Virus record (IMG/VR): IMGVR_UViG_3300021964_000096
Span: 1-52,548 of that record
Origin: a virus
Taxonomy: Duplodnaviria; Caudoviricetes
Direction: 5' to 3' (one strand)
DNA length: 52,548 nt
Of this stretch, positions 1 through 27,934 are shown in pieces. A program made the position numbers and the translations under genes. The notes beneath the pieces are model-generated. The model saw nothing but the letters and a program-made list of their open reading frames with translations. It was not told the DNA's origin and ran no database searches. Positions within the stretch are counted from its first letter, which is position 1. The number at the start of each line of letters is the position of its first letter.

Positions 1-290
1 ATCGTCAGCCAAAAAGTTAGTGCATCAGTGCACAGAGCTTGGCGGCGTAAATGATGGAAGCACCGTAATGGTCCATCAAATAGCTACGGACGGGCGAGGG
101 ATCGTTATGAACTCCGCGAGTAGCAAATAGCTAGATGACGAGGCAGGAGGGCAATCGCGACGATAAATTCTGCGGTTGTTTTCAGAGGCCGATTCTAGTG
201 GCAACTAGGTGTGGATGCAACAGGAGTTATTAAATTAACCAGAGTTCATTACTGCTGACGAGTATGAGGGTTCGATTCCCTCACTAGTTA
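1..290 (+). ncRNA. Large structured RNA with tRNA-like 3' end (5' end probably upstream of window); class unassigned
   Basis: T-arm GAGGG-TTCGATT-CCCTC (266-282), then 7 nt ACTAGTT + A290. TCGTCAGC (2-9) is the exact complement of GCTGACGA (254-261). Internal helices 20-24/29-33, 52-58/72-78, 107-114/242-249, 143-148/168-173. More GC-rich than the flanks, with no credible ORF. Confidence 0.65.
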
Positions 291-294
291 CAAA

Positions 295-370
295 TGTGCA
301 GCGAATAAATAACAAAGACGCGCACCGGTCTAACGACAGTGGTGCACCGCGCTTAGGAAATGACTGCACA
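295..370 (+). ncRNA. Small structured RNA closed by a 7-bp terminal stem; unassigned
   Basis: TGTGCAG (295-301) pairs with CTGCACA (364-370). Inner hairpin GCACC/GGTGC (322-326/341-345) is capped by GTC-TAAC-GAC. Sits 3-4 nt from the tRNA-like RNAs on each side. Confidence 0.5.
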
Positions 371-373
371 CAC

Positions 374-452
374 GGGGGTGATTTGGTGTTGACGTAGTAG
401 AAAGCCTGCAAAGGAACTACTTCGGAAGACAGTTCGAGTCTGTCCACCTCCA
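374..452 (+). ncRNA. Minimal tmRNA-like RNA (tRNA-like domain only, Ala identity, no tag reading frame)
   Basis: Acceptor GGGGGTG/CACCTCC with G3:U wobble and discriminator A452. Unstemmed D-loop analogue ATTTGGTGTTGA. P2 helix CGTAGTAG/CTACTTCG (393-400/417-424), 3-nt linker GAA, T-arm GACAG-TTCGAGT-CTGTC. P2 is capped by a CCT-GCAA-AGG hairpin. Confidence 0.85.
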
Positions 453-473
453 CTAATTTTAAACTATATAATT

Positions 474-671
474 ATGCCAAATATGAGTTATTGCCGTTTC
501 GAAAATACGGTAAGTGATATGCGAGACTGCATTAGTGCCATTGAAGATGGTGACACTAGCGATTTAAGCCCTAGTGAAATAAGAGCGCTTGATGAGTTTT
601 TAGGTCTAGCACATGAAATTACTAATCTCGAGTATGAAATTGAAGAAATACTAGGAGATTATGAAAATTAA
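474..671 (+). CDS. Small acidic early phage protein
   Basis: 65-aa ORF with A-rich start and MSYCRFENT motif; overlaps the next gene. Confidence 0.75.
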   Translation: MPNMSYCRFENTVSDMRDCISAIEDGDTSDLSPSEIRALDEFLGLAHEITNLEYEIEEILGDYEN

Positions 672-930
672 AGAAAAAGATTTAATAACTCTAGGTTTCG
701 AGCGAACTGACGTGTCTGAGAAAGAATCTGGTGCTAATTCGTTTTATTATTATACATTAGATTTTGGTGAAAATAAAGTTGTAAGTCTTATTAGTTCAAG
801 CGATGACGAAGTGGTAGATGATAATTGGCTTTTATCAATATTTGAAGACGAGTGTTTAGTAGTAAAAAAGCTAGAAGATTTAATTAGTTTTATAAATATA
901 ATGAAAAAATTTAATAAAAAAAAGAAATAA
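661..930 (+). CDS. Hypothetical early protein
   Basis: 89-aa ORF in a tightly packed run. Confidence 0.7.
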   Translation: MKIKEKDLITLGFERTDVSEKESGANSFYYYTLDFGENKVVSLISSSDDEVVDDNWLLSIFEDECLVVKKLEDLISFINIMKKFNKKKK

Positions 931-933
931 ATT

Positions 934-1221
934 ATGAAAATTAAAGTAAAACAAATGACAAGCCCAAGGGCAGGTGTATTAATGTGTATTCATCCACCTG
1001 TAGCTAACCAATTTATTATCTATACAAGTGAAGGAAAATATTTCCAAAGCTACGATAGTATTATTGTTGCTATTGAAGACGGTAAAATAACGTTAGATGA
1101 AAACACTTGGAATTACTCACGCACAACTAGTAAATACAGAAATATATTTTTAGACGAAACGACTGCAGAAACTAGAGCTAAAATAGAATCAGGTGAGTAT
1201 GAACTAGAAGATCTTAATTAA
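934..1221 (+). CDS. Hypothetical phage early protein
   Basis: 95 aa; FQSYDSII...WNYSRTTSKYRN pattern typical of a widespread small phage family. Confidence 0.75.
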   Translation: MKIKVKQMTSPRAGVLMCIHPPVANQFIIYTSEGKYFQSYDSIIVAIEDGKITLDENTWNYSRTTSKYRNIFLDETTAETRAKIESGEYELEDLN

Positions 1222-1240
1222 TTCAAAAGAAAAATAAATT

Positions 1241-1492
1241 ATGAGTGATTACCAAGGATGGACTAATTACGCCACATGGCGTGTAAATTTAGAAATACTA
1301 AGCGACATAGAGTTTGAGAACAAAACGTCGGCAGATGACCTAAGAGAAATAGTAGAAGATATAGTATTTAGCCAATATGAGCTTAGCAACGGATCTCATT
1401 TAATTGAAGACTATGCAAGAGCTTTTATAAGTGAAGTTAATTTTTATGAAATAGCTCGGAGTATTAATGAAGAACTAGAATTACAATCATAA
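1241..1492 (+). CDS. Hypothetical phage protein (YxGWTNYxTW family)
   Basis: 83 aa; N-terminal YQGWTNYATW motif. Confidence 0.75.
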   Translation: MSDYQGWTNYATWRVNLEILSDIEFENKTSADDLREIVEDIVFSQYELSNGSHLIEDYARAFISEVNFYEIARSINEELELQS

Positions 1493-1522
1493 TACGATAA
1501 CTATTGGATAATATTAATGTAA
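1481..1522 (+). promoter_or_regulatory. Putative phage-specific promoter, copy 1
   Basis: TTACAA-N4-AATACGAT-N7-GGATAATAT-N2-ATGTAA; 31/42 identical, without gaps, to 3089-3130. Confidence 0.65.
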
Positions 1523-1541
1523 CAAATAAACAATTATAACT

Positions 1542-1682
1542 ATGAAAATCAAAGGATTAACAGAACAAGACTGTGCTTTTGTATACTACGTCTTACGAGA
1601 CTGGTCACAAAACCATGAAAATTATGACGAACAAGATGTAGATGATGTCTACCAAATTGCTAAAAAATTTAAAACTTACTAA
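1542..1682 (+). CDS. Small hypothetical protein (46 aa, absent from ORF track)
   Basis: MKIKGLTEQDCAF...KKFKTY; directly downstream of the promoter motif. Confidence 0.65.
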   Translation: MKIKGLTEQDCAFVYYVLRDWSQNHENYDEQDVDDVYQIAKKFKTY

Positions 1683-1684
1683 AT

Positions 1685-1831
1685 ATGAAATACCTTTATC
1701 AAGAACTAGATGAGTTGTTAAGTACTATTAAATACTCAGACGAAAGGGGTTTAGATGATCTATATGATAATCTATACTTCGAAGACATTTTAGAAACATG
1801 TAAAGAAATTGCAAAATATATAGAAGAATAA
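1685..1831 (+). CDS. Small acidic hypothetical protein (48 aa, absent from ORF track)
   Basis: MKYLYQELDELL...AKYIEE; fills the gap in the operon. Confidence 0.65.
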   Translation: MKYLYQELDELLSTIKYSDERGLDDLYDNLYFEDILETCKEIAKYIEE

Positions 1832-1835
1832 ACAT

Positions 1836-2084
1836 ATGAGATCAAACTTACTATCTCGGCTAAAGCCCGAGTTTAAAAAAGGCTTGGAAGACAACAAGGT
1901 TAGATATCCTGATATGACTAACGATATTGAGTTCTTACTTACTCAATTATTTTACTACGACGACTTAACTGTTCGTCAAGTGTTAAACATATTTGTGTTC
2001 TCTGACATGGAATATCTTGACAGAAAATCATTCGACTGGCGCTATGGTGAAGACGTATTCGAAGTTGAAAACAACGTAGCATAA
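1836..2084 (+). CDS. Hypothetical protein
   Basis: 82 aa; TAATG coupling to the next gene. Confidence 0.7.
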   Translation: MRSNLLSRLKPEFKKGLEDNKVRYPDMTNDIEFLLTQLFYYDDLTVRQVLNIFVFSDMEYLDRKSFDWRYGEDVFEVENNVA

Positions 2085-2308
2085 TGGTTATGTGTGAATG
2101 GACGCTTGCAGATATTAAGAATAGAGCAAGCAATAAGGCTTTTGCAAAGGTTACAACGCTAACCTTAGATGTTGAAACTTACAAGGAAGACTTAAGAACA
2201 GGTAATATCGGAGGTGTTACTTATGAAGAGTTTGAACAAGTAGTAAAAGGCTACGAAAAAGAGCTACAAGTATGGAATTACATTACAGAATTAATAGAAA
2301 AACAATAA
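2084..2308 (+). CDS. Hypothetical protein
   Basis: 74 aa; translationally coupled. Confidence 0.7.
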   Translation: MVMCEWTLADIKNRASNKAFAKVTTLTLDVETYKEDLRTGNIGGVTYEEFEQVVKGYEKELQVWNYITELIEKQ

Positions 2309-2312
2309 TAAT

Positions 2313-2822
2313 ATGAGTAAAAAACTAATTACACCAGAACTAATTAACGAAAGACTAGAAGCTAAAGGCTTCGGTGACATTCAAGCTAACAATGAAAACG
2401 CAGCTAGAAAATCAGTACTAAAACATTTCAGTGTAGAACTAACAGACAACTATGCCGGTAGTGCCGACTTCTATATATACGAAGAATCAACAGCTGATGG
2501 CTACTCAGTGTTTGTAGCTACTCACGACCTAAGTGTAGTAAATGTAAGCGAGAATATATACTATTACGACACTGATCTAAGTGGTGCTCTTATAGATTTT
2601 ATGAAATATTTCGCTAACGGCGATGAAGATTATCCTGAGGTTGTATATGTAGATGATCTTCACCAGCAATTTATTTATGATGCTATCGAGGAGTTATTTG
2701 TGTATTTAGCTGAAAGATTCGAAGAAGAAGTTATCGATGAACTAAAAAACGAAGGGTACGTGTATGATGATCCTAAAACAGAAGCAGAATTTATAAACGA
2801 AGTAAATAATATATTAAACTAA
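2313..2822 (+). CDS. Highly acidic early protein
   Basis: 169 aa; D/E- and aromatic-rich. Confidence 0.75.
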   Translation: MSKKLITPELINERLEAKGFGDIQANNENAARKSVLKHFSVELTDNYAGSADFYIYEESTADGYSVFVATHDLSVVNVSENIYYYDTDLSGALIDFMKYFANGDEDYPEVVYVDDLHQQFIYDAIEELFVYLAERFEEEVIDELKNEGYVYDDPKTEAEFINEVNNILN

Positions 2823-2824
2823 TT

Positions 2825-3088
2825 ATGACAGAAACAAAACAAAAATTACCAGAGTGGTTCAAAGGTATGCTATACACAGAAGGATTAATAGTAGAAAATC
2901 CATTTAGTGGAGAAGAATACGAGCTAAATAATGTAGAACTAAGTATGTATGACTTCTTAATGGGTTGTGCTTTGCTGTTTGAAAGAGCATCTAACAGAGT
3001 TAACGACGATATGATAAGAGACTACGAAAAAGGTATTAAATGGTTCAGGCAGAATAACCCTGAAGCTTATATGGCTTTGCTAGATTAA
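2825..3088 (+). CDS. Hypothetical phage protein
   Basis: 87 aa; VENPFSGE...WFRQNNPEAYMALLD. Confidence 0.75.
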   Translation: MTETKQKLPEWFKGMLYTEGLIVENPFSGEEYELNNVELSMYDFLMGCALLFERASNRVNDDMIRDYEKGIKWFRQNNPEAYMALLD

Positions 3089-3130
3089 TTACAAACTAAA
3101 TACGATTGTCTTCGGATAATATGTATGTAA
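3089..3130 (+). promoter_or_regulatory. Putative phage-specific promoter, copy 2 (upstream of tRNA-Gln)
   Basis: Same spaced motif as 1481-1522, ending 7 nt before the tRNA. Confidence 0.65.
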
Positions 3131-3137
3131 TAACATT

Positions 3138-3210
3138 TGTCTCATGGTGTAATTGGCAACACGTTGGTTTTTGGTACCAAAGAGTCTAGGTTCGATCCCT
3201 GGTGAGACAA
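3138..3210 (+). tRNA. trnQ: tRNA-Gln(TTG), CCA not encoded
   Basis: Acceptor TGTCTCA/TGAGACA; anticodon arm TTGGT-TTTTGGT-ACCAA with TTG at 3171-3173; T-arm CTAGG-TTCGATC-CCTGG. Confidence 0.93.
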
Positions 3211-3239
3211 CAATTATTAACAATTAAATTAAATAACTT

Positions 3240-3473
3240 ATGAATAGATTAATTTTACCAATGCAAAGCGTAGAAGTTAATTCAACAGCTATAAGCAAAG
3301 CTGATTATGAATATGACAACTACAAATTAACGTTAACTTATAAAAACGGTAGTTCTTATAGTTATACTAAAGTTCCAAACTTCGTGTTTGAAGGCTTAAG
3401 ATTATCTCAATCTAAAGGCAAGTTTATTAACAAGTATGTGTTATCAACTTATAACTATAGAAGAGTTTCGTAG
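3240..3473 (+). CDS. KTSC domain protein
   Basis: VNSTAISKADY...LTLTYKNGSSYSYTKVP...SKGKFIN pattern. Confidence 0.85.
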   Translation: MNRLILPMQSVEVNSTAISKADYEYDNYKLTLTYKNGSSYSYTKVPNFVFEGLRLSQSKGKFINKYVLSTYNYRRVS

Positions 3474-18720: not shown

Positions 18721-18926
18721 TATTTTTTATTTTTTGGTACACAGTTAGGTACTTTTTTACCTCCTTTTTTCTTCATGCCAATCATTTTGTACCCTGACCA
18801 GCAAGGTCCTTTCTTCTTAGCTATACTAATGGGACCGCCAGATCCATCAGCATTCATTGTAACTTCTTGGTTAACAGGAAATTTATAGCTTCTAGATTCG
18901 TTTACTCTTTTAGTTATTGGTTTCAT
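18720..18926 (-). CDS. Small basic protein with PCWxGY...VPNCVP motif
   Basis: 68 aa; coupled to its neighbours. Confidence 0.7.
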   Translation of the reverse strand: MKPITKRVNESRSYKFPVNQEVTMNADGSGGPISIAKKKGPCWSGYKMIGMKKKGGKKVPNCVPKNKK

Positions 18927-21900
18927 CGTAATATTATTTTTCTAGTCCTTGTTGTTCGTGTTCGTTTATTTGTTTTTTTGCTTTTCTTTTTATCTTCTAA
19001 ACCTAGGTTCCATTCATTCCAACCTGCTAGCAAAGCAATTCTTTGCCACTCTTCTACATTCTCTCCTAAAGCAGCGTCTATATTATTTATTTTCTTAATT
19101 AACCTATCTAATGGTACGTTAGTAGCTGCGGATATAACTTGACCGCCAGCTAAATAAGCTGGGTTGTCTAAACTAAAACCTTTTTCTTTCATTTCATCTT
19201 TATTCCATTGATAAGCTCTAGACGCGTTCTGTATTTGTGATACTTTAGCAGATAAAGGTGGTGATACTCTTAAAAGATCAGACACTAAAACTCTTTCTAC
19301 GTTTGGTCGTTTTTTATCAAGCTCGGTATTTAACTTTATAGCTGTATTCTTTAAAACACTAGCTATAGCGCCTACGTAACCAGAGCCTCTCATAACAGAA
19401 TCTGCCATACCATTTAAGGTTCTGTAAGAATCTTGTTTTTGTTTTTCAGACATTTCATTATCTTCATCAAAAGCTATAGCAAATAAAGCATTTTGAAGGG
19501 CGTTAAATATTAAGTTTTGAACAGCTCCGTAATACAGTATTTTAGATATGTTTTCTTTTTTACTACCTCTACCGTCTTTAAGATCCATATAAGCTTTCTT
19601 CATTATACGGTTGTACTGCATAGGCGTATTTGCAAAAGCTAAAACAACTCTACCTAAATCACTAGCTTGCTGAGCTGATATTCTGTCAGGTCTAGATGAC
19701 TGTTGGTTTTCTTCAGATATTTCTCTCCAGTCTTTAAGAGCTTGCTTCTCTGCGGCAACCTCGTTCATACCTTCTTTTACATATTTTTTAATTCTATTTC
19801 TATAATACGTAGAACCTCCAGACGCTATAGCAAAACTATCAGCAACTTGCGTTGGTGTAAAACCAAATTCAAGAAGTTTATTGACAACTCCTCTAACACC
19901 ACCTTTTTTAGCCATATCAGCAATATCAGCTTCGTTTATATTCATACGTAAACCGCTTCTTCTTTCTTTCAAAAAGTCAGAGTTCATTAACGTAGAAAAA
20001 TCCTTCCAATACTGTTTTTGATTAGCAAAAGCTTTTGCAGCTGCAAATATATTATTGTCTTTAAAGTTCAAGTAGTTAAAAGAAGATATCGTTTGTAGAA
20101 CTGCTGATCTTGTATTAAAGAACATAGTTACACCAATACTACCAGTTAACCAATCAACTAGTTTACCTGAAAACTTATCAGCATTGTTACCTCTGTTTCT
20201 ACCAGTTTCCATACGTTTTAATATACCTTCCATAGAAGATCTATAATTCTTACCAAACGCAGCTTCTAATTTATTTAAGTTTTGCTCAGAAAATATTTCA
20301 CTAACGTTTTGCTTCCAAGGCTCTAAATACTTAGCTCTTTTAGTAGTGTTTAAAGTTTGTAGTAAATCTGTAGTGATTGTTCCAGTAACCCAACCTTCGC
20401 CTGGTTTTGCGTATTGATCACCTTTTAATATATTTACTAACTGCTCTGAAAAAGAACTTAGTTCTGGAGATTTTTCTACAAACTCATTAAGTGATTTTAA
20501 ATCCGCCTTACTTAAGCCAGGAACTTCCATGCCTTGCTTACTCCATATATTAACTCTAACAGCTTGCTCTTGAGTGAAAGGTTCTCCAGGTAATTTTTTT
20601 CTTAAATTCTTAGGTACAGAGCTTATTTGTTTTTTTAACGCGTTAAAATCGTTTAACATAGCTACCCTGTCTCTAGATATATTATTCATGGCTCTAGCGT
20701 AAGGATCTAGCATTGTTTCTTTGTAAAACTTCATTTGAGCTTCACCTTTTTTACCTTTAGCTAAAGTTGTGTATAGCAAACCTGTAAAATCATTAGCAGA
20801 ATAAGGAACAAAAAAGTTTAATTTACCTTTTCCTTTTCCAGCAACCTCACCTTTAACTCTAGCGTATTTCTTTTGAGCTCCAATACCTGTTTTAAACTCT
20901 AAGTATTCGTTAAATGTCTTGCTTAAATCTATGTCTTTAGAAGCTTTGGCTTGTTGTACTTTAGATTTTACATCTATTTGACTTAATATATCTTTTACAG
21001 CTTTAACGTTTTTAATAGCATCATCTGCGAAGTAAAAATCATTGTAACCTTCACCTGCTTTATCTAAAACCCATTTAGCTTTAGCTTTAGCAGCTCCATC
21101 GCCTAACCCAGTTATGTTTTCAAGCGGTATATCTATACCAGCTTCTTTCATGAATTTCTGTATTTCAATAGCAGATTCAGGTGGTCTAGCTGTTAATATA
21201 AATACGTCTTCAGTTCCTCTAGCTGCTGCTATTTTTTCAGCTACACTAAATAAAGGTCCTTTTTTACCGTCAATAACTTTGCTAAACTCCTTAAAATCAA
21301 ATTTAGCTCCTTGACTCTCTAAAAGATCAGCTTGCTTAGCAAACTCAGAAGCATTTATTTTACCAACTTTATTTCTTGTTATACCTGAGTAAACCTTCTG
21401 TAAAAATCTTTCAGGTAACGCTTCACCAAAGCCGATGTCTGTAGTTTCTATTTCGTATAGTCTATCTCCAAACTCTTCTCTATATCTATTAGCACTTTCT
21501 TGAACTTGCTCCCAGGTTTTTCTAACAACAAAGTCAGGTAGTGATCTTTCAACTCTAGCTTGATTTCTGGATATAGCGGTTTCAAGAGGTGTGTTTGCTA
21601 CAACCATATGAACTTCAAAACCTGCGTCTTCAAGTTGCTTAACTTTCTTCATGGTAGCATTGTAAGAAGCGCCAGTACCATCAATTACCATACCATCTCC
21701 GTTCTTAGCATACTTATCAAACTTAGCAACAGCTGCTTTTCTAGCTGCCGCACCAAGTTTAGATCTCGTAGATCTTTGTTCTTTAGTGTACTCACCTTCT
21801 CTAGCTGGTAATCCAGCTTCTTCTTTCATAGCTTCAAGAGCTATATCTTGATTTACTACTTTAAAACCTCTTCTACCTAACTGTAAACCTTTACCTATGT

Positions 21901-24900
21901 TTGTTTTACCAGCTCCAGGCCCACCAACCATGAATATAGCTTTATATTTGTTAACCCCTTGCGAGAAGCCGCCTTCTACGTTTGGGGTAGTGTAATTTAC
22001 TTTACTATTAGATCTAGCTAATGTATCATCAAAATCAAATACTCTAATTTTTTTAACAGGAGCTTTTACGTCGTTACCTGCTTTTAAAGCTTTGTCTAAA
22101 GACTTTAAATTTTCTATGCTTTCTTGAACACTTTTAGGTTTTTCAAAAAACTCCTTTGAAGCTTTTGTAGATGTATTTTGCTCTAAAGCAGATTGGGCAT
22201 CTTTATAAGCTTGCTCAAAACCAGCCCCTTTTTTAACTGTTGTGTATGATCCATCAGCTTGTTTCTCATAAAGAGTAAGCTCTGTTATATCTCTACCGTA
22301 ATGGCTAAAGTTGTAATATCTTTTCCAAGGGTTTATAAGAGCTTCTAAAGGTAAGGAGCTTTGGTATTTTTCATTTATAATATTATCCATTTCCTTAGGG
22401 ATAATACTAGCGCTATAATCGTTTAATTTAGCTCTAAGTTCAGCCTTTGTTATTTTACCCTCTAGATACTGAACAGAGTAAACCTTCATAACGTTTGCAG
22501 GAGGATTATGCTCATACCTGTAGTTATCAGGGTTAAAATCTTTACCTTTTACAGCAATACTATTTAAGTTGGCTGCAGCTCTTAGCAAGCCTTCCATTGA
22601 AGATGTACTGCTAGATAGAAACATGCCAGTAGAATTATTGTCTCCGTTTTTCTTAAACTGCTCTAAAATATCTACATATAAATCTCTATTAGCATTAGCG
22701 TACTCTAAAGAACCGTCTAATGTTTCTTTAGATATTTTACCTTCTTTTTCAACTTCTTTTATAGCAGAGGAAGTTGCCGTTGAGCTCTGCTTAGCTCTTT
22801 TTACATCTATTCTTTTTCCGTCAAACTCTATATGTGAGAATTCCATTTTTTCACCTTCTTTAGTGTTTTTTGGTTTTCTAACAACTCTTATAGCGTCAGG
22901 GTTTGACATGTTGGGTTTTATAACTAAATTTATAAAATCTTCAGCTTTACCAAACGCACTTTGTCTAGTAGTACCTGTTTTACCGTTAGATAACTCTAGT
23001 ACTATCCCAGCGTCTGTTTCAGCCCACTTAAATAAACCACTACCAAGTTTAGCGTTAGCAGAGTAAGCTTTAACTAGAAACGCAGCTGTTTCAGCAAGCT
23101 CTGCATCTGTTTTGTCTTTAAACATCTCACCAATAGCCTTTTCATGTGCTCTTGTAAAAGCATTTATTTGTTCCGGGTTATCGAAGTCAATACCGTTTCT
23201 ACCTACACCTAACATTTCTTTAGTTTGCTCTTGAGCTCTTTGCTCTGAGACCTGCTCGAACAAATATCTTTGAAGTGGCTTTGGTTCAGTGCCTTTGGAC
23301 AAAGCTCTACTAGCTCTATCATACTCACCAACATTGTACTCTATAGATTTTATTAAATCATTTTTAGCTTTTAAAGGTGTGCCATCTTTCTTAGTTAAAA
23401 AAGTTTTATCAAAAGATTCGTTAAAAGCTTTTTCAACTTTCATGCCAGAAGCAATAGCGTTGTAGAAGTCGGCTTCACCTTCTTCATACATCTTTATATC
23501 CTTTGGGTTACTTATTAAGCTAGGTTTAAATTTATTTAATTTTCTTTTAGCCTCTTTAATAACTTCACTAGCCATACGCTTAGACGTGCCAGCTGCAATA
23601 TCAGCTATTATTTGATCTGTGCCTTTAGCTGTCTTGACACCAGATTCTTCAATCTTAGATCTTATAACTTTGTTTGTAACGTTATCTACGTAAAGCTTTG
23701 TTAAACCCTGTAAGAGTGTCCCAAACTTAGTTCTATTAGCTGCTTTCATAGGTATACTAAGCTCACCAGCTGGTGTAATACCTATATCTTGCTGTAATTT
23801 TCTTAATGTCTCTATAGATGGTTTTCTAAACTCAGGCTTTAGTCTCCAAACTTGAGTTTGCGATGTTTTACCTAAGCTTCTGCCTTTAGGTGAAGATATG
23901 CCAGGTATTTTAGTATCAACCTTGTCATACATTATTTTAAGCATTTTATTGCTTAAACCTGTAGCATAACCTTTAGCGTCAGGCGAAACATCTATAATCT
24001 TTTCTTGGCCTTCTAAAGTTTTAAGCGTAGCTTCTGGACCAGCAACGTTATATTCTGGCACTGTCTCCATAAACCTTTTAAACTCTTGAACGTTTCTAAA
24101 AAGTCCTTGCATTCTAGAAACTTCAGCTGCGCCGCTACCCCTACCGTAGTTCAAAGTAGATTTACCTGTAGCTCTTTCGTAAGGCACATCTAACAATGCT
24201 TCAGCTACTTTAGGTGAATACTCGTTAGCCGCTGTTTTGTATGTCAATGTAGATAAAGTTTCTGGCTTTAAATCTACAGACTCTTCTATTAATTCACGTT
24301 TAACTCTTACAGGTGTAAAATCTCTAACATCTATAAGATCTTTTGTTTCTGCCTCTTCTTTAGCTCTTCTTTCAGCTAGAGCTTCAGGAGATGATTGGTC
24401 TACTATTTCTCTAGCGAACTCAGTGTCAGCGCTTGTGGTTTCTCGTTTTCTACTATATTCTTCTACTATTTTAGGACCAACTCTAAGACCTAAAGGTTTT
24501 TGCATGTAAGTACTAAGCTCCACCTTTTCACCAGTTCTTGGGTTTACAGGTTTATAGTTTCTAATAACACTTTCAAGCTGATCTAATATTCTACCTTCTA
24601 TCTCAGGATTACCTTTAATAGCGCTAACAGGTACACCTTTTTTAGCCGCCCATGTACTTACAGCTTCTATACCTATTCTAACATACTGATCTTTAAAGTC
24701 AGTAAGCTCTTTAGGCGACATACTTTCTTTATTGTTTTGGTATTTTTCAGCTAGTTTACTAGCAGAAGCTTCAAGATCTTTAGATGCCTTTATTTCATTA
24801 ACTCTATCCTGTGTTATTTCATTGCCAAACGTATCAACTAGTTTGTTTCCGTCAATACTAATATCACTAAACTTTTCGAAACTTTTTTTAATACCACGTG

Positions 24901-27900
24901 CAGATCCTCCCTCTGAAACTCTACCCATGCTATACATAAATTCTAACAACTGCGAAGCTCTAGTTGAGTTAGATGCACTTAAGTCTAGGCTTGAGCTTAA
25001 ATCTAAACCTGCTTTTTTTCCTGTATTAACTAAAGTTCTTTTTAAGCTAGGAAGTAATCCTTTGTTTAAAAGCAAGTCAGCATATTTAGGGTTTTGTAGA
25101 AACTCTATAGCATTCATAACATACTCTTCAGCTTTAACATCCTTGCCGTAGGCAAAATCTATAACTTCTTCAAAAGTTAAATCTTTCTTGCCCTTGTAAT
25201 CAAACCTTTTACCTTGTAAAGCTTTATTGAAATCATTTTTTATAACATCTTTAAACTGCTTAGCAAGCTCAGGATTGGCTTTGAAAGCCATATCCATAAA
25301 AGCGTGTCCTACTTCGTGAGCAAAAACACCAGGCTTGTACTTTAATATGTCTACTGTAAACTTTTTGCTGATAGGATCATATAGTGCTTTTGCTCCTCCT
25401 GTTTTTTCACCACCCTCTACAATTTCTAACGAAACTTTATCTCCTAATATACCGGATTTTCGCATCTCATTAAACTGTCTATTGACTTGTCTTTGAGCCG
25501 CAGCAATATTAGCAGTACCTTGGTTTATAACCTTTTTAGCAGCTTCAATTTCGTATTTAGTAGATTTATCGCTATTAAGCACTGCTCTAGCAGCGTTCAT
25601 ATTATCTCTTACTGATGCTATATCTAGCTTATTAAAAGCTCTATCAGCAACAGCCATTTCGCTTTTCAGTAAATTTACTAAGTTTTGTTTCTTTAAAACT
25701 TCACTATCTGTTAATAGTTTTTCTTTACTAAAAGGACTTGCTTCTTTAAGAGATCTAGAAGTACTTTCTAAAGAACGTTTTTTTAGAAAATCGTTGTCAA
25801 GTTCATTTTGTGTTTTCTCAAGCAAGCTTCTTTTTTCTGCTATACTTTTGAAATCTAACTTTTTTATACCTAAACCTCCTATTAAAGAAAATACAGCCAT
25901 ATTAACAGCTACTCTAGACCCTACTTCTCCTAAATCTCCATACTCTTCTTCCATGCTTGAGCGGAAAGCTTTACTACCTATTACATCTTTATATACAGCT
26001 TCAGTAAACAAAGCTGCTTCAGATCCAACCGCACCACCTGGTCCAGCTAAAACTACTTTTTCTAAAAAAGGGTTAAACCTAGCTAAGTCTCCTTGAAATC
26101 TAAAAGGTATTGCTTTTCTCATTAAAGCACCTCCCGCAAAAAACCCAACACCACCACCTGTTTGAGATTCTCCTTCTGTTACAGCTTTAAATTTAGCTTC
26201 TTCCAATAAAGCTCCTAAAGCAAATCGCAATGGTTTATTACTAGTATTTGCTATTAATCTAGTTATTCCTGCAGCTCCAGCTACCTTATTGGCTAAAGCA
26301 AATTTAACCAGCTCTGGCATAAATGCTCCAACTCCTTCTGCAACATTCATTCCAAAACTTCGTTCAAAATTTTTCTTTTGATCTTCGGTCATAGTTATGC
26401 CTGCTTCGGAAAAAACACCTTCTAATGCGTCTAACTCTTTTCTAGCTGTAGTACCTATTCTTTCAGTAGCTTCCTCACCAATTGTGGCTTCCGTAGCGGC
26501 TTCAAAAAACCTAGAAGTTTTTGATTTCTTTATACTACCAGGATCTATGTTTAATAAATAAGCAGTTTTAAAAGCTTCTCTTTCAAGGTTTAATTTTTTT
26601 CTATCTTTGCTAATAGACTTAAGAGTTTTACCTAACAGAGGAACAATCCCTCCTTCTGGGTTGTATATAGATGACTGCAATAACTCTTCTTGATCTTGAA
26701 AATTCATTAGATCAGAGTACTTAACGTTTTTAAACACGCCATCCTCTGGTTCGTACCCGTAATTACCCAAAGCAATAGCAAACATTCCGTCTGTAGGTTT
26801 TAAGTCAATAGTGCTATTTCTATTTTTTTGGTAATCTTCATATTCTAATACATGACCAAAATAAGCCTGCTCTAAACTTTCTAAGTCTAAGTCTTTATAA
26901 TAGCCTTCTAATTCGTTCAACTCGCCTTCAAGATTAGTCATTTCATCTTGCTCACCCGCAGAATTTTTAGCTTCTACTTCAGGCTTAGTTAACCTCTGCC
27001 CTGTTTTATTATCAAACATGAAGGTAAGATCTTCGTTGTAAGTATTAAGAGCTTCATCGGCTAACGGTGATAGTTCTTTTAACTTTACTTGAGCGGCTAG
27101 TTTTTCATCATAAGTTCCGTCTCCTTGCAGTATTTTTTGTTGCTCTCGCGTTTGTTTTATTATATTAGCTAAATTTTTAGCTTCTTTAGATATTTCACTT
27201 ATGTGAAGCTTAGCTCCTGTGTTTAATTTAAAATCGTAACCACCGTCTTCTAACGCGTCTTCTACTAAAGCTCTAGCTGCATTCTGCTCTTGCTCAGCTT
27301 CTTGTTTTGATAGTTTTTTAATTTTAGCTTTAACTATATTATCTATGTCATAGTCTGATGGAAATTCTCCATTAGGAAATCTTCTGTAGTGAGCTTCTTT
27401 TATCTCAGACCTAATGTTGTCAAAAAAAGAAGGGTCTTCAGACAGCTCGCTTATAGAGCCTCCCTCTATATCTAACTGATATGGAGTATTAGAGTTCAAC
27501 ACAGCGTTAGCTGTTGATTCTAGGTTTTTTACTTTTTTTATATATTCCTTAGGTGTAGCCTTTGGGAGCTGCGTATTTCTTGTTCTAGTGCTTTCTACAG
27601 TTGTTTCATTAGTTGATTCTTCTAAACTTCTAGTGTAAGGCAAGGCATCTTTGTCATCTTCTATATCGACATTGTTTATTCCAAACTCAGCAAAAAACTC
27701 TTTATCATTTAACTTTTCTAAATCCAAAGAACCATTTTCCTGCTCTAAGTCCGTACTCTCGGATGCTATCTCCGGCTGCGGTGTTACAGTCGCATCCTCT
27801 TCCGCAACACCTTTTGGCTTTTTTACTTCTTTGAGACCATATTTACTAACATATTCATCAAAGCTCATGTTAAGGTTTGAAGCAGCTAGTTTTACATCTT

Positions 27901-27934
27901 CTAACGAGTATTCATTTCCTTCGTATTCAAACAT
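18923..27934 (-). CDS. Giant polyvalent internal virion/ejection protein (zincin, HNH-like, HAD phosphatase and P-loop kinase modules)
   Basis: 3003 aa; AHEVGH; EHNPP...WKRYY; VFDFDDTL...ILTARP...FADD; MVGGPGAGKT; located after smaller ejection genes. Confidence 0.85.
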   Translation of the reverse strand: MFEYEGNEYSLEDVKLAASNLNMSFDEYVSKYGLKEVKKPKGVAEEDATVTPQPEIASESTDLEQENGSLDLEKLNDKEFFAEFGINNVDIEDDKDALPYTRSLEESTNETTVESTRTRNTQLPKATPKEYIKKVKNLESTANAVLNSNTPYQLDIEGGSISELSEDPSFFDNIRSEIKEAHYRRFPNGEFPSDYDIDNIVKAKIKKLSKQEAEQEQNAARALVEDALEDGGYDFKLNTGAKLHISEISKEAKNLANIIKQTREQQKILQGDGTYDEKLAAQVKLKELSPLADEALNTYNEDLTFMFDNKTGQRLTKPEVEAKNSAGEQDEMTNLEGELNELEGYYKDLDLESLEQAYFGHVLEYEDYQKNRNSTIDLKPTDGMFAIALGNYGYEPEDGVFKNVKYSDLMNFQDQEELLQSSIYNPEGGIVPLLGKTLKSISKDRKKLNLEREAFKTAYLLNIDPGSIKKSKTSRFFEAATEATIGEEATERIGTTARKELDALEGVFSEAGITMTEDQKKNFERSFGMNVAEGVGAFMPELVKFALANKVAGAAGITRLIANTSNKPLRFALGALLEEAKFKAVTEGESQTGGGVGFFAGGALMRKAIPFRFQGDLARFNPFLEKVVLAGPGGAVGSEAALFTEAVYKDVIGSKAFRSSMEEEYGDLGEVGSRVAVNMAVFSLIGGLGIKKLDFKSIAEKRSLLEKTQNELDNDFLKKRSLESTSRSLKEASPFSKEKLLTDSEVLKKQNLVNLLKSEMAVADRAFNKLDIASVRDNMNAARAVLNSDKSTKYEIEAAKKVINQGTANIAAAQRQVNRQFNEMRKSGILGDKVSLEIVEGGEKTGGAKALYDPISKKFTVDILKYKPGVFAHEVGHAFMDMAFKANPELAKQFKDVIKNDFNKALQGKRFDYKGKKDLTFEEVIDFAYGKDVKAEEYVMNAIEFLQNPKYADLLLNKGLLPSLKRTLVNTGKKAGLDLSSSLDLSASNSTRASQLLEFMYSMGRVSEGGSARGIKKSFEKFSDISIDGNKLVDTFGNEITQDRVNEIKASKDLEASASKLAEKYQNNKESMSPKELTDFKDQYVRIGIEAVSTWAAKKGVPVSAIKGNPEIEGRILDQLESVIRNYKPVNPRTGEKVELSTYMQKPLGLRVGPKIVEEYSRKRETTSADTEFAREIVDQSSPEALAERRAKEEAETKDLIDVRDFTPVRVKRELIEESVDLKPETLSTLTYKTAANEYSPKVAEALLDVPYERATGKSTLNYGRGSGAAEVSRMQGLFRNVQEFKRFMETVPEYNVAGPEATLKTLEGQEKIIDVSPDAKGYATGLSNKMLKIMYDKVDTKIPGISSPKGRSLGKTSQTQVWRLKPEFRKPSIETLRKLQQDIGITPAGELSIPMKAANRTKFGTLLQGLTKLYVDNVTNKVIRSKIEESGVKTAKGTDQIIADIAAGTSKRMASEVIKEAKRKLNKFKPSLISNPKDIKMYEEGEADFYNAIASGMKVEKAFNESFDKTFLTKKDGTPLKAKNDLIKSIEYNVGEYDRASRALSKGTEPKPLQRYLFEQVSEQRAQEQTKEMLGVGRNGIDFDNPEQINAFTRAHEKAIGEMFKDKTDAELAETAAFLVKAYSANAKLGSGLFKWAETDAGIVLELSNGKTGTTRQSAFGKAEDFINLVIKPNMSNPDAIRVVRKPKNTKEGEKMEFSHIEFDGKRIDVKRAKQSSTATSSAIKEVEKEGKISKETLDGSLEYANANRDLYVDILEQFKKNGDNNSTGMFLSSSTSSMEGLLRAAANLNSIAVKGKDFNPDNYRYEHNPPANVMKVYSVQYLEGKITKAELRAKLNDYSASIIPKEMDNIINEKYQSSLPLEALINPWKRYYNFSHYGRDITELTLYEKQADGSYTTVKKGAGFEQAYKDAQSALEQNTSTKASKEFFEKPKSVQESIENLKSLDKALKAGNDVKAPVKKIRVFDFDDTLARSNSKVNYTTPNVEGGFSQGVNKYKAIFMVGGPGAGKTNIGKGLQLGRRGFKVVNQDIALEAMKEEAGLPAREGEYTKEQRSTRSKLGAAARKAAVAKFDKYAKNGDGMVIDGTGASYNATMKKVKQLEDAGFEVHMVVANTPLETAISRNQARVERSLPDFVVRKTWEQVQESANRYREEFGDRLYEIETTDIGFGEALPERFLQKVYSGITRNKVGKINASEFAKQADLLESQGAKFDFKEFSKVIDGKKGPLFSVAEKIAAARGTEDVFILTARPPESAIEIQKFMKEAGIDIPLENITGLGDGAAKAKAKWVLDKAGEGYNDFYFADDAIKNVKAVKDILSQIDVKSKVQQAKASKDIDLSKTFNEYLEFKTGIGAQKKYARVKGEVAGKGKGKLNFFVPYSANDFTGLLYTTLAKGKKGEAQMKFYKETMLDPYARAMNNISRDRVAMLNDFNALKKQISSVPKNLRKKLPGEPFTQEQAVRVNIWSKQGMEVPGLSKADLKSLNEFVEKSPELSSFSEQLVNILKGDQYAKPGEGWVTGTITTDLLQTLNTTKRAKYLEPWKQNVSEIFSEQNLNKLEAAFGKNYRSSMEGILKRMETGRNRGNNADKFSGKLVDWLTGSIGVTMFFNTRSAVLQTISSFNYLNFKDNNIFAAAKAFANQKQYWKDFSTLMNSDFLKERRSGLRMNINEADIADMAKKGGVRGVVNKLLEFGFTPTQVADSFAIASGGSTYYRNRIKKYVKEGMNEVAAEKQALKDWREISEENQQSSRPDRISAQQASDLGRVVLAFANTPMQYNRIMKKAYMDLKDGRGSKKENISKILYYGAVQNLIFNALQNALFAIAFDEDNEMSEKQKQDSYRTLNGMADSVMRGSGYVGAIASVLKNTAIKLNTELDKKRPNVERVLVSDLLRVSPPLSAKVSQIQNASRAYQWNKDEMKEKGFSLDNPAYLAGGQVISAATNVPLDRLIKKINNIDAALGENVEEWQRIALLAGWNEWNLGLEDKKKSKKTNKRTRTTRTRKIILR

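What the first reader, a model, noticed from the sequence alone, without database searches (positions are those of the whole stretch)
374..452. Phage 'mini-tmRNA': complete alanine tRNA-like domain with the mRNA-like domain deleted
Seen: every tmRNA TLD hallmark in 79 nt. These are the GGGGGUG/CACCUCC acceptor with G3:U wobble and A discriminator, an unstemmed D-loop ending UUGA-C, a P2 helix (7/8 pairs), a 3-nt linker and a perfect T-arm. P2 is closed by a CCU-GCAA-AGG GNRA hairpin instead of pseudoknots and a tag ORF. Known: G3:U70 is the AlaRS determinant and SmpB binds the TLD elbow. As I recall, TLD-only forms are reported in jakobid mitochondria and mycobacteriophage DS6A; verify this before claiming novelty. 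Inference: either an SmpB/AlaRS decoy that blocks host trans-translation, or a tag-free rescue RNA acting on ribosomes stalled by host tRNA/mRNA-cleaving defences.
Basis: partly seen in the sequence, partly recalled or inferred. Interest (0 to 1): 0.9.

Follow-up and report, generated by a model that had tools for sequence, protein, structure and literature searches.

The report
Phage tmRNA with no message part
This marine phage carries a small RNA gene that is only the alanine-accepting, tRNA-like head of the bacterial ribosome-rescue RNA (tmRNA), a form so far described for one mycobacteriophage but found here in hundreds of uncultured phage genomes.

Summary
Rfam's tmRNA model matches 374-455 end to end at 53.1 bits (cut-off 47), with 12 nt where the model has 304 positions. 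ARAGORN finds no tag.

It is neither a remnant nor a chance match. The copies share one architecture. The P2 helix (8 of 8 pairs) and the T stem (4 of 5) show compensatory changes.

In a scan that did not fix the acceptor, pairs 4-7 covary freely, but G3:U70 is kept in 65 of 65 distinct sequences. The discriminator is A in 75 of 77. Alanine charging is therefore under selection.

The kind is known. Mycobacteriophage DS6A has a 'TLD only' tmRNA, and my model finds it at 50.8 bits. Papers say such a molecule inhibits tmRNA in E. coli.

In 49 representative viral records, none encodes SmpB and 2 encode an integrase.

Most likely it is a charged mimic that uses host SmpB, competes with host tmRNA at stalled ribosomes and prevents tagging. 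Tag-free rescue or alanine tailing remains open. It is a new member of a known but barely studied kind. The wide spread was absent from the papers I could search.

The parts
374..452 (+). TLD-only tmRNA-like RNA gene, 79 nt up to the discriminator; CCA is not encoded and the trailer is CTA at 453-455
   Evidence: RF00023 at 53.1 bits, E 3.9e-18. My model R1 scores it 82.1 bits. An identical copy lies in L073 and close copies in L003, L027, L082 and L098.
374..380 (+). Acceptor 5' strand; pairs with 445-451 and includes the G3:U70 wobble (376 with 449)
   Evidence: Sequence read. G3:U70 is kept in 65 of 65 distinct sequences of the acceptor-unbiased alignment, while pairs 4-7 covary.
381..392 (+). 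D-loop without a stem: GG at 385-386, and GA at 391-392 facing GA at 425-426
   Evidence: Columns that the first scan's pattern did not fix are conserved in 81 sequences: first G of the GG 77 of 81, G of the GA 67 of 81, A of the 3' GA 79 of 81.
393..424 (+). P2 helix (393-400 with 417-424, 7 of 8 pairs) enclosing the A-rich bulge 401-404, the GCAA-capped 3-bp hairpin 405-414 and AA 415-416; this stands where the mRNA-like domain and pseudoknots would be
   Evidence: All 8 P2 pairs show changes on both sides in alignments A2 and A3.
428..444 (+). T arm: 5 bp and a 7-nt loop
   Evidence: The T stem is 5 of 5 paired in 79 of 80 distinct family members. 4 of 5 pairs covary.
445..452 (+). Acceptor 3' strand and discriminator A452
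   Evidence: The discriminator is A in 75 of 77 sequences of the acceptor-unbiased set.
203..293 (+). Second anticodon-less tRNA-like element upstream. It has a 6-bp acceptor-like stem (203-208 with 284-289), a GG-containing loop, a variable arm, a 4-bp hairpin with a GACG loop (253-264), a T arm (265-283), A290 and a CAA trailer. Function unknown; it may or may not act together with the TLD.
   Evidence: Found in 9 distinct forms, with compensatory changes in the small hairpin and the T stem and a 54-nt minimal form in L081. Its 3' part occurs in 62 viral loci. Rfam has no family for it.
1..54 (+). 3' end of a conserved small Cys-rich gene (stop codon at 52-54); the window starts inside this gene
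   Evidence: Alignment with 7 relatives that hold the whole gene.
55..373 (+). Non-coding stretch that carries the small RNA modules ahead of the TLD. It includes a stem-closed module (295-301 pairs with 364-370).
   Evidence: Modules are present or absent among relatives. Contigs from RNA libraries cover the stretch.
474..671 (+). First of a block of small genes of unknown function that follows the TLD
   Evidence: ORF list. Matches phrog_8760, unknown function, E 6.4e-16.
3138..3211 (+). The phage's own tRNA-Gln, with trailer CAA; it shows how this phage's tRNA-type genes end
   Evidence: ARAGORN and Rfam. Trailer read.

Best explanation
Window 374-452 is a gene for a TLD-only tmRNA. The steps below are inferred unless marked otherwise.

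1. It is transcribed with the phage's early small-gene block.
2. It is cut out like a tRNA and given CCA by the host enzyme.
3. Host AlaRS charges it with alanine through G3:U70 and A73.
4. Host SmpB binds its D-loop/T-loop elbow.
5. As Ala-TLD.SmpB.EF-Tu it competes with host tmRNA for SmpB and for the empty A site of ribosomes stalled at the end of broken mRNAs.
6. It can take over the nascent chain, but it has no resume codon, no tag frame and no stop codon.
7. The result would be that ssrA tagging by the host is blocked or short-circuited: chains receive at most untemplated alanine.

What is shown here: the identity of the RNA, its conserved structure, the selection on the alanine identity elements, and the absence of a phage SmpB. 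Binding, charging and the effect on the host are inferred from the tmRNA literature.
For: Identity:
- RF00023 matches end to end with 12 nt in place of 304 model positions.
- The structure is kept across the family. In A3 (81 sequences) 95.7% of cells pair, against 69.8% in shuffles (0 of 500 reach it). The covariation score is 0.591 against 0.126. Controls with partners slid by 1-3 columns pair in 47-57% of cells. A2 gives the same picture.

Selection for charging:
- The second scan was anchored on the D-loop, P2 and T arm and left the acceptor free.
- In its alignment, acceptor pairs 4, 5, 6 and 7 change on both sides in 19, 29, 22 and 8 of 66 distinct sequences. G1-C72 is kept in 64 of 65, G2-C71 in 65 of 65 and G3:U70 in 65 of 65.
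- By plain regular expression, G3:U70 holds in 74 of 77 sequences and discriminator A in 75 of 77, across 30 different acceptor stems.

Dependence on the host:
- SmpB is absent from the window's record and from 49 of 49 representative TLD-bearing records, 12 of them at least 90% complete.

Treated like a tRNA:
- A true tRNA gene lies on the same strand within 100 nt in 7 of 120 loci, only 4-8 nt away in L049, L027, L070 and L116.
- The trailers of the phage's tRNA-Gln (CAA) and of the TLD (CTA) are alike.

Literature, passages read:
- A DS6A-like TLD molecule strongly inhibits tmRNA in E. coli (PMC4131195; PMC11915505).
- SmpB binds the TLD and enhances its aminoacylation. A TLD fragment with SmpB supports template-free polyalanine synthesis in vitro (PMC3929946).

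Presence in RNA libraries:
- Contigs from 2 of 4 metatranscriptome runs cover the TLD of close relatives: X19 covers 203-463 and X23 covers 300-456.
- Their differences include a compensatory change (397 G>A with 420 C>T). Another (422 T>G) turns the U.U mismatch into a wobble pair.
Against: - No binding, charging or effect on tagging was tested.
[quoted passage not shown] Selection for charging therefore points to something beyond inhibition by titration, possibly a productive role.
- Some phages carry full-length tmRNA (PMC4131195; PMC9004378). That suggests more trans-translation, not less, can help a phage.
- The RNA evidence is from assembled contigs only. DNA carry-over is not excluded, and neither ends nor a CCA tail can be seen.
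- No sigma-70-type promoter was found on the + strand in 1-1000, though the likely host group may use another promoter type.
- A few relatives have A3:U70 (L265, L283), and 3 of 77 sequences lack G3:U70. Alanine identity is therefore not universal.
- I could not read Mao et al. 2009, the paper that reports the inhibition.
Confidence: 0.5

Rival explanations
1. The RNA is the phage's own minimal rescue system, with no tag or with an alanine tail. Ala-TLD.SmpB enters stalled ribosomes, takes the nascent chain and may do so repeatedly, adding one or more untemplated alanines. The ribosome is then freed by host back-up factors or by drop-off. The benefit would be faster ribosome recycling when host mRNA decay floods the cell with non-stop complexes.
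For: - Strict conservation of G3:U70, A73 and the first two acceptor pairs, while the rest of the helix covaries. Titration of SmpB alone would not need this.
- A TLD fragment with SmpB supports template-free polyalanine synthesis in vitro (PMC3929946, passage).
- CDS-less mitochondrial tmRNAs co-occur with SmpB and are thought to help with incomplete mRNAs (PMC11915505, passage).
- Some phages carry full-length tmRNA.
Against: - The reported effect in E. coli is inhibition of tmRNA.
- The RNA has no stop codon, so release needs another factor. None of 50 records (the window's plus the 49) encodes an RF-1/ArfB-type domain or a peptidyl-tRNA hydrolase.
- No in vivo evidence exists for alanine tails made in this way.
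Confidence: 0.28
2. The RNA is a pure SmpB sponge. Uncharged, it soaks up host SmpB, and nothing happens on the ribosome.
For: - PMC4131195 says a similar molecule inhibits tmRNA whether or not it can be charged, 'perhaps acting by titrating SmpB'.
- The elbow features are conserved: the GG of the D-loop, the GA...GA pair and the T loop.
Against: A sponge needs neither G3:U70 nor A73, yet these are the least variable positions of a helix that otherwise covaries.
Confidence: 0.1
3. The RNA is a decoy or target in phage defence. It would absorb a host nuclease that cuts tRNA or tmRNA, or it would be the ligand sensed by defence proteins with SmpB-like domains.
For: - Type II and III-A CoCoNuT systems carry SmpB-like domains predicted to bind tmRNA (PMC11090510, passages).
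- The gene lies among early small genes of unknown function.
Against: - No defence or counter-defence gene recurs beside the TLD. The 224 loci fall into 88 context groups, and no protein cluster is shared by more than 4 groups. The clusters I annotated are a portal protein, an M23 peptidase and an HTH protein.
- Nothing links the RNA to a nuclease.
Confidence: 0.07
4. The element is a decaying remnant, an integration scar or an attP fragment of a host ssrA gene, or an odd tRNA-Ala.
For: - Phages often integrate into ssrA and carry its 3' end.
- DS6A has a tyrosine integrase about 10 kb from its TLD.
- The window's P2 helix has one mismatch.
Against: - Both halves of the TLD are present and pair with each other.
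- Covariation is strong.
- The same capped architecture recurs in loci of 29-67% G+C.
- No integrase is found in the window's record. Only 2 of 49 representative records have one, and none of the 12 complete ones.
- There is no anticodon arm. ARAGORN calls the window's copy neither a tRNA nor a tmRNA.
Confidence: 0.03

Closest known systems
TLD-only tmRNA of mycobacteriophage DS6A (tmRNA Website entry; Mao et al. 2009, cited in PMC4131195 and PMC11915505)
   Same: Both are phage-borne, about 80 nt, and have a complete TLD with G3:U70 and discriminator A. In both, P2 is closed by a 4-5-nt A-rich bulge and a short C/G-closed hairpin. My model R1, built only from IMG/VR copies, finds the DS6A copy at JN698994 28478-28557 with 50.8 bits, E 2.9e-8.
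   Different: The acceptor stem differs at positions 5-7. DS6A is a GC-rich temperate phage of an actinobacterium and has an integrase. The window's phage is AT-rich, shows no integrase, and is probably a phage of Flavobacteriia. Rfam's tmRNA model passes its cut-off on the window but not on DS6A.
CDS-less organelle tmRNAs: jakobid and other mitochondria (Rfam RF02544) and ~65-bp plastid forms (PMC11915505)
   Same: Only the TLD is present, with no tag reading frame. They co-occur with an SmpB encoded elsewhere.
   Different: The organelle genes are usually circularly permuted and belong to a cellular lineage that keeps its own SmpB. The phage form is not permuted and must use the host's SmpB. 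I did not test the window separately against RF02544, because matches within one Rfam clan are collapsed to the best one.
Canonical tmRNA (Rfam RF00023), including full-length phage copies (Bxz1-type mycobacteriophages, Bacillus phage G, the two-piece form of Melnitz)
   Same: The TLD has the same sequence and structure, and the element matches the family model above its cut-off.
   Different: There is no resume codon, no tag frame, no stop codon and no pseudoknots: 12 nt stand in place of 304 model positions. ARAGORN finds no tag.
Laboratory TLD fragments used for crystal structures and in vitro trans-translation (described in PMC3929946)
   Same: The design is the same: the 5' and 3' TLD strands are joined by a small loop that closes P2. 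According to the review, such fragments bind SmpB and, together with SmpB, support template-free polyalanine synthesis.
   Different: Those fragments are man-made. This one is natural and keeps a conserved A-rich bulge and a mini-hairpin.

Membership tests
tmRNA (Rfam RF00023) | tRNA-like domain: 7-bp acceptor with G3:U70, discriminator A, T arm, D-loop without a stem | tested here: met
   Sequence read. The model match covers both TLD ends at 53.1 bits, above the cut-off of 47.
tmRNA (Rfam RF00023) | mRNA-like domain with a resume codon, a tag reading frame and a stop codon | tested here: not met
   12 nt stand in place of 304 model positions. ARAGORN finds no tmRNA or tag peptide in the window, in standard or permuted form.
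tmRNA (Rfam RF00023) | Pseudoknots PK1-PK4 around the tag frame | tested here: not met
   The space between the P2 strands is 16 nt (401-416): a bulge, a 3-bp hairpin and AA.
tmRNA (Rfam RF00023) | Works with SmpB | not testable with these tools
   No SmpB gene in the window's record or in 49 of 49 related records. Binding to host SmpB is inferred, not tested.
TLD-only (CDS-less) phage tmRNA, DS6A type | Complete TLD whose P2 helix is closed by a short hairpin, in a phage genome | tested here: met
   The record is a virus record with terminase, portal and primase/helicase genes.
TLD-only (CDS-less) phage tmRNA, DS6A type | Likeness to the DS6A molecule itself | tested here: met
   Model R1, built from 30 IMG/VR copies including the window's, hits DS6A 28478-28557 over its whole length at 50.8 bits, with the same bulge and cap layout.
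TLD-only (CDS-less) phage tmRNA, DS6A type | Inhibits host tmRNA when expressed | not testable with these tools
   Reported for a DS6A-like molecule in E. coli (passages in PMC4131195 and PMC11915505). The original paper is not held.
tRNA-Ala | Cloverleaf with a D stem and an anticodon arm with a 7-nt loop | tested here: not met
   ARAGORN does not call it. Within Rfam's tRNA clan the tmRNA model wins. Position 8 is A and no D stem can form.
Integration-site (attP) fragment of ssrA | Only the 3' part of ssrA is present, next to an integrase | tested here: not met
   Both TLD halves are present. No integrase in the window's record. Integrase in 2 of 49 related records.

The most novel reading that the evidence does not exclude
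TLD-only tmRNAs would be a widespread, overlooked class of phage RNAs that reprogramme ribosome rescue. Charged by host AlaRS and carried by host SmpB, they would enter non-stop ribosomes again and again and add template-free alanine tails. This would be an RNA-only counterpart of alanine tailing in ribosome quality control, in place of the host's encoded tag. The phage would then decide the fate of truncated proteins and the speed of ribosome recycling. These RNAs could also be the natural ligands of the SmpB-like domains in CoCoNuT defence systems. The second anticodon-less tRNA-like RNA beside the TLD in this phage clade (203-293) could be part of the same toolkit.
Probability: 0.18. Interest if true: 0.85.

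Novelty: new member of a known kind. Interest (0 to 1): 0.6.

Why it matters
Trans-translation is the main ribosome-rescue pathway of bacteria and is studied as an antibiotic target. A natural RNA that carries only the tRNA-like head of tmRNA is a ready-made probe of that pathway. So far it has been treated as a curiosity of one mycobacteriophage.

Three results here change that picture. First, the same design recurs in phages of very different base composition and gene context. Second, these phages never bring their own SmpB. Third, the alanine identity elements are the most constrained part of the molecule.

Together these make an open question testable: do phages shut down tagging, rescue ribosomes without a tag, or add alanine tails?

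There is also a practical point for annotation. Rfam labels these genes 'tmRNA' without saying that the message part is missing. ARAGORN mostly misses them or miscalls them.

Tried and rejected
A two-piece or trans-acting message part. I looked in the upstream 373 nt for a tag frame. ARAGORN finds no standard or permuted tmRNA. The Rfam E-value scan gives only a weak beta_tmRNA hit on the T arm at 266-282 (E 0.57). That T arm belongs to a separate tRNA-like element whose acceptor does not match the TLD. Rejected.

Pelagibacter host. The only DNA similarity to cultured phages is about 105-117 bases (within 1083-1200) at 75% identity to Pelagibacter podophages. The terminase points instead to phages of Flavobacterium, Cellulophaga, Tenacibaculum and Maribacter. 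The host is inferred, not shown.

Cultured relatives with the gene. BLAST of 360-470 against 50,697 phage records found nothing at E <= 1. BLAST is too insensitive for 80 nt, so this says little. R1 finds no copy in MW202828.1 or NC_055853.1.

A conserved protein partner. Clustering the ORFs within 3 kb of the TLD in 224 loci gave no cluster shared by more than 4 of 88 context groups. The clusters I annotated are a portal protein, an M23 peptidase, an HTH protein and two with no significant Pfam match, one of them only a weak, below-cut-off match to DUF7227.

Promoters and terminators. No + strand site was found in 1-1000.

RNA runs. Parts of 1-3300 without cover (551-1320 in all four runs) are not evidence of silence, because relatives differ in gene content there. 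The small word shares of runs X19-X24 are not used to name a habitat.

Literature. Searches found no paper that describes TLD-only tmRNAs in phages other than DS6A. The terms included TLD-only, mini-tmRNA, tmRNA-like, truncated and minimal tmRNA, tmRNA TLD, phage and viral tmRNA, and trans-translation with phage, SmpB and decoy. The library lacks most subscription journals. Supplements were closed.
Full report
WHAT IS THERE. The window is a whole IMG/VR virus record of 52,548 bases, linear, estimated 82% complete. There is a 7-bp acceptor stem with a G3:U70 wobble and discriminator A. There is a D-loop without a stem that holds GG and ends in GA. An 8-position P2 helix has one U.U mismatch. 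A 4-nt A-rich bulge follows, then a 3-bp hairpin with a GCAA loop, then AA. A 3-nt linker leads to a perfect 5-bp T arm with a 7-nt loop. The 3' trailer is CTA, so CCA is not encoded.

Rfam's tmRNA model (RF00023) matches 374-455 at 53.1 bits against a cut-off of 47, E 3.9e-18. The match runs from model position 1 to 374, with 12 nt where the model has 304 positions. ARAGORN reports only a tRNA-Gln at 3138-3211. Folding energy alone is unremarkable (z = -1.67), and the unconstrained fold does not draw the T arm.

IT IS ONE OF MANY. I scanned IMG/VR with a pattern that fixed the window's acceptor and T loop but left 40-70 free bases between them. With the window's own locus L001 these hold 80 distinct sequences of 69-92 nt. 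The loci have 29-67% G+C.

Folds constrained only at the acceptor and T arm give the same layout in most of them: a D-loop, a P2 helix, an A-rich bulge, a short hairpin, one or two bases, the returning P2 strand, about three bases, and the T arm. The T stem is fully paired in 79 of 80.

On a 30-sequence MAFFT alignment, 93.4% of cells pair against 72.0% in shuffles (0 of 500 reach it). All 8 P2 pairs and 4 of 5 T-stem pairs change on both sides. Controls with partners slid by 1-3 columns pair in 42-57% of cells. A covariance model built from that alignment (R1) realigned 81 matches, with 95.7% paired and a covariation score of 0.591 against 0.126. That alignment is fitted to the model and so leans towards it. 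The MAFFT result does not have this bias.

THE ALANINE IDENTITY IS UNDER SELECTION. The first scan fixed the acceptor, so it cannot speak about it. A second scan was anchored on the D-loop, P2 and T arm and left the acceptor free.

Of 112 loci read, 84 distinct sequences came out. 77 had at least 6 of 7 acceptor pairs; 7 had weak acceptors and are probably chance matches. Among the 77 there are 30 different acceptor stems. G3:U70 holds in 74, the discriminator is A in 75, and the first trailer base is C in 72. CCA is encoded in 21.

R1 found 89 matches in 100 of the 104 new loci; I did not give it the last four. In that alignment (66 distinct rows) pairs 4-7 change on both sides in 19, 29, 22 and 8 rows. 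G1-C72 is kept in 64 of 65, G2-C71 in 65 of 65 and G3:U70 in 65 of 65. R1 was built from sequences with G3:U70, so it could favour that pair. The regular-expression count does not share this bias.

Positions that AlaRS reads are thus frozen in a helix that otherwise drifts. SmpB binds the elbow, not the acceptor end (PMC3929946). The simplest reading is that charging with alanine matters.

There are exceptions. 3 of 77 sequences lack G3:U70. Two relatives of the window's clade have A3:U70 (L265, L283).

NOT A SCAR, AND NO PARTNER. The window's record has no tyrosine integrase and no SmpB. I grouped 224 TLD loci by the proteins encoded within 3 kb. They fall into 88 context groups, and no protein cluster is shared by more than 4 groups. 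Of the five recurrent clusters I annotated, three have clear Pfam matches: a portal protein, an M23 peptidase and an HTH protein. The other two have none.

In these 49 records:
- SmpB: 0 of 49 (0 of the 12 that are at least 90% complete).
- Integrase: 2 of 49 (0 of 12).
- RF00023: 47 of 49 hit and 40 of 49 are over the cut-off. The model-spanning matches at the TLD sites are about 72-95 nt and none is full length.

With the window's record added (50 records), RF-1/ArfB domains and peptidyl-tRNA hydrolase were each found in 0 of 50.

The same pattern finds only 33 places in one genome for each of 185,579 prokaryote species (596 billion bases), most of them in metagenome-assembled genomes. R1 matches all 33. 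ARAGORN called none of the 14 I checked a tRNA at the match. The gene is thus mainly viral.

IT IS TREATED LIKE A tRNA GENE. A true tRNA gene lies on the same strand within 100 nt in 7 of 120 loci. It is only 4-8 nt away in L049 (Gln), L027 (Met), L070 (Tyr) and L116 (Trp). ARAGORN puts a call on the TLD itself in just 5 of 120 loci, as a false tRNA or as a tmRNA with a meaningless tag.

In the window the phage's tRNA-Gln ends with A then CAA, and the TLD with A then CTA.

The gene sits at the head of a block of small + strand genes of unknown function. These are followed by ligase, DNA-binding, sigma factor, Erf, exonuclease, primase/helicase and ribonucleotide reductase genes. The structural genes are on the other strand.

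The terminase is closest to phages of Flavobacterium, Cellulophaga, Tenacibaculum and Maribacter, at 45-62% identity. The host is therefore probably a marine member of the Flavobacteriia. This is an inference.

RNA LIBRARIES. Twenty-four public runs hold parts of 1-3300, six of them RNA. I laid contigs of four metatranscriptome runs from four studies at 90% likeness.

Word depth in the four runs (X19 / X20 / X21 / X23):
- 1-110: 1309 / 2861 / 187 / 51
- 111-220: 746 / 462 / 118 / 56
- 221-330: 166 / 0 / 73 / 94
- 331-440: 48 / 0 / 0 / 56

The TLD itself is covered in two runs: X19 by a 603-nt contig over 203-463, and X23 by a 158-nt contig over 300-456. Their differences from the window include 397 G>A with 420 C>T, a compensatory pair in P2. 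They also include 422 T>G, which turns the U.U mismatch into a wobble pair.

These are contigs. They show presence in RNA libraries, not ends, strand or a CCA tail, and DNA carry-over is not excluded.

WHAT IS KNOWN. PMC4131195 (passages read) lists 'Mycobacterium phage DS6A (TLD only)'. It says a similar molecule, chargeable or not, strongly inhibits tmRNA, perhaps by titrating SmpB, and cites Mao et al. 2009.

PMC11915505 (passages read) is the 2025 update of the tmRNA database and searched RefSeq viruses. [quoted passage not shown] It adds that mitochondrial tmRNAs have no tag frame but co-occur with SmpB, and it reports CDS-less plastid forms of about 65 bp. Mao et al. 2009 is not held.

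I fetched DS6A. R1 finds the molecule at 28478-28557, between gp33 and gp34, where the record has no annotation. The score is 50.8 bits, with the same bulge-and-cap layout. Rfam's tmRNA model does not reach its cut-off there.

The window's RNA is therefore a member of the DS6A kind. Seven literature searches found no account of the kind in other phages. Supplements were closed.

HOW IT MOST LIKELY WORKS. Established knowledge, as summarised in PMC3929946: SmpB binds the TLD, protects it and enhances its alanylation. Ala-TLD.SmpB with EF-Tu enters the empty A site of a ribosome stalled without downstream mRNA. It takes the nascent chain and moves to the P site. In a normal tmRNA the resume codon is then placed in the A site.

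This RNA has nothing to place there. My best reading (0.5) is that it is a charged competitor of host tmRNA for SmpB, EF-Tu and stalled ribosomes, and that it abolishes or short-circuits tagging. The reported inhibition in E. coli fits this.

The main rival (0.28) is that the same steps are productive for the phage: ribosomes are freed without a tag, or chains receive alanine tails. There is an in vitro precedent, because a TLD fragment with SmpB supports template-free polyalanine synthesis.

A pure sponge (0.1) does not explain the frozen alanine identity. A role in defence (0.07) has no support from gene context. A remnant, att site or odd tRNA (0.03) is contradicted by the calls above.

VERDICT. 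The function is narrowed but not settled. The instance is a new member of a known kind. That the kind is widespread, host-SmpB-dependent and selected for charging appears to be new, and it makes the function testable. Interest 0.6.

Noticed in passing
window 203-293 (+): A second anticodon-less tRNA-like RNA lies 80 nt upstream of the TLD. It has a 6-bp acceptor-like stem, a GG loop, a variable arm, a small hairpin with a GACG loop, a T arm, and A plus CAA at the end. The small hairpin and the T stem show compensatory changes among 9 forms. A 54-nt minimal form (L081) lacks the variable arm. In L003 and L081 it abuts the TLD with a gap of 3-4 nt. Its 3' part occurs in 62 viral loci, mostly on contigs of 58-70 kb. 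A TLD follows downstream in 21 of the 54 loci handed to R1 (53 of them new). There is no Rfam family and no alanine identity.
   Followed up: partly
window 55-202 and 295-372 (+): The non-coding stretch ahead of the TLD is a mosaic of stem-closed modules that come and go among relatives, for example 295-301 pairing with 364-370. A motif around 97-117 recurs in other relatives' spacers. RNA-library contigs are deepest over 1-220, but bin 1-110 also holds the end of a gene.
   Followed up: partly
window 1-54 (+): The window begins inside a small Cys-rich gene that is conserved in relatives, with its stop codon at 52-54. What first looked like a conserved non-coding module is the end of that gene.
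   Followed up: yes
window 3122-3217 and 1481-1495, 3089-3103: The tRNA-Gln gene sits in a 96-nt block that contigs from three RNA runs skip (joint 3121 to 3218, with 4 other letters between). It therefore behaves as a cassette that is present or absent among relatives. A promoter-like repeat precedes it at 3089. The repeat also occurs at 1481 and, in relatives, upstream of the small Cys-rich gene.
   Followed up: partly
L154 (JN698994) 28478-28557 (+): The DS6A TLD-only tmRNA lies between gp33 and gp34 and has no feature in the GenBank record. Rfam's tmRNA model does not reach its cut-off there, but R1 does. DS6A also encodes an RtcB-like RNA ligase (gp76).
   Followed up: partly
L014 3208-3288; L276, L286, L287, L294, L293, L283, L265, L275: One relative carries a second, divergent TLD copy with a different acceptor that still has G3:U70. 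Within the window's clade the region between the P2 strands varies, giving molecules of 65-125 nt. Two copies have A3:U70 instead of G3:U70.
   Followed up: partly
L121-L153 (genome contigs): The 33 matches in prokaryote genomes are mostly in metagenome-assembled genomes. They include three Poribacteria chromosomes, candidate-phyla bacteria (Peribacteria, Gracilibacteria, Saccharibacteria) and one archaeal bin (Nitrosotalea). I did not check whether these are prophages, misbinned viral contigs or cellular genes.
   Followed up: no
window 18923-27934 and 32912-38842 (-): Two very long ORFs of 3003 and 1976 aa lie in the structural-gene block. I did not annotate them.
   Followed up: no
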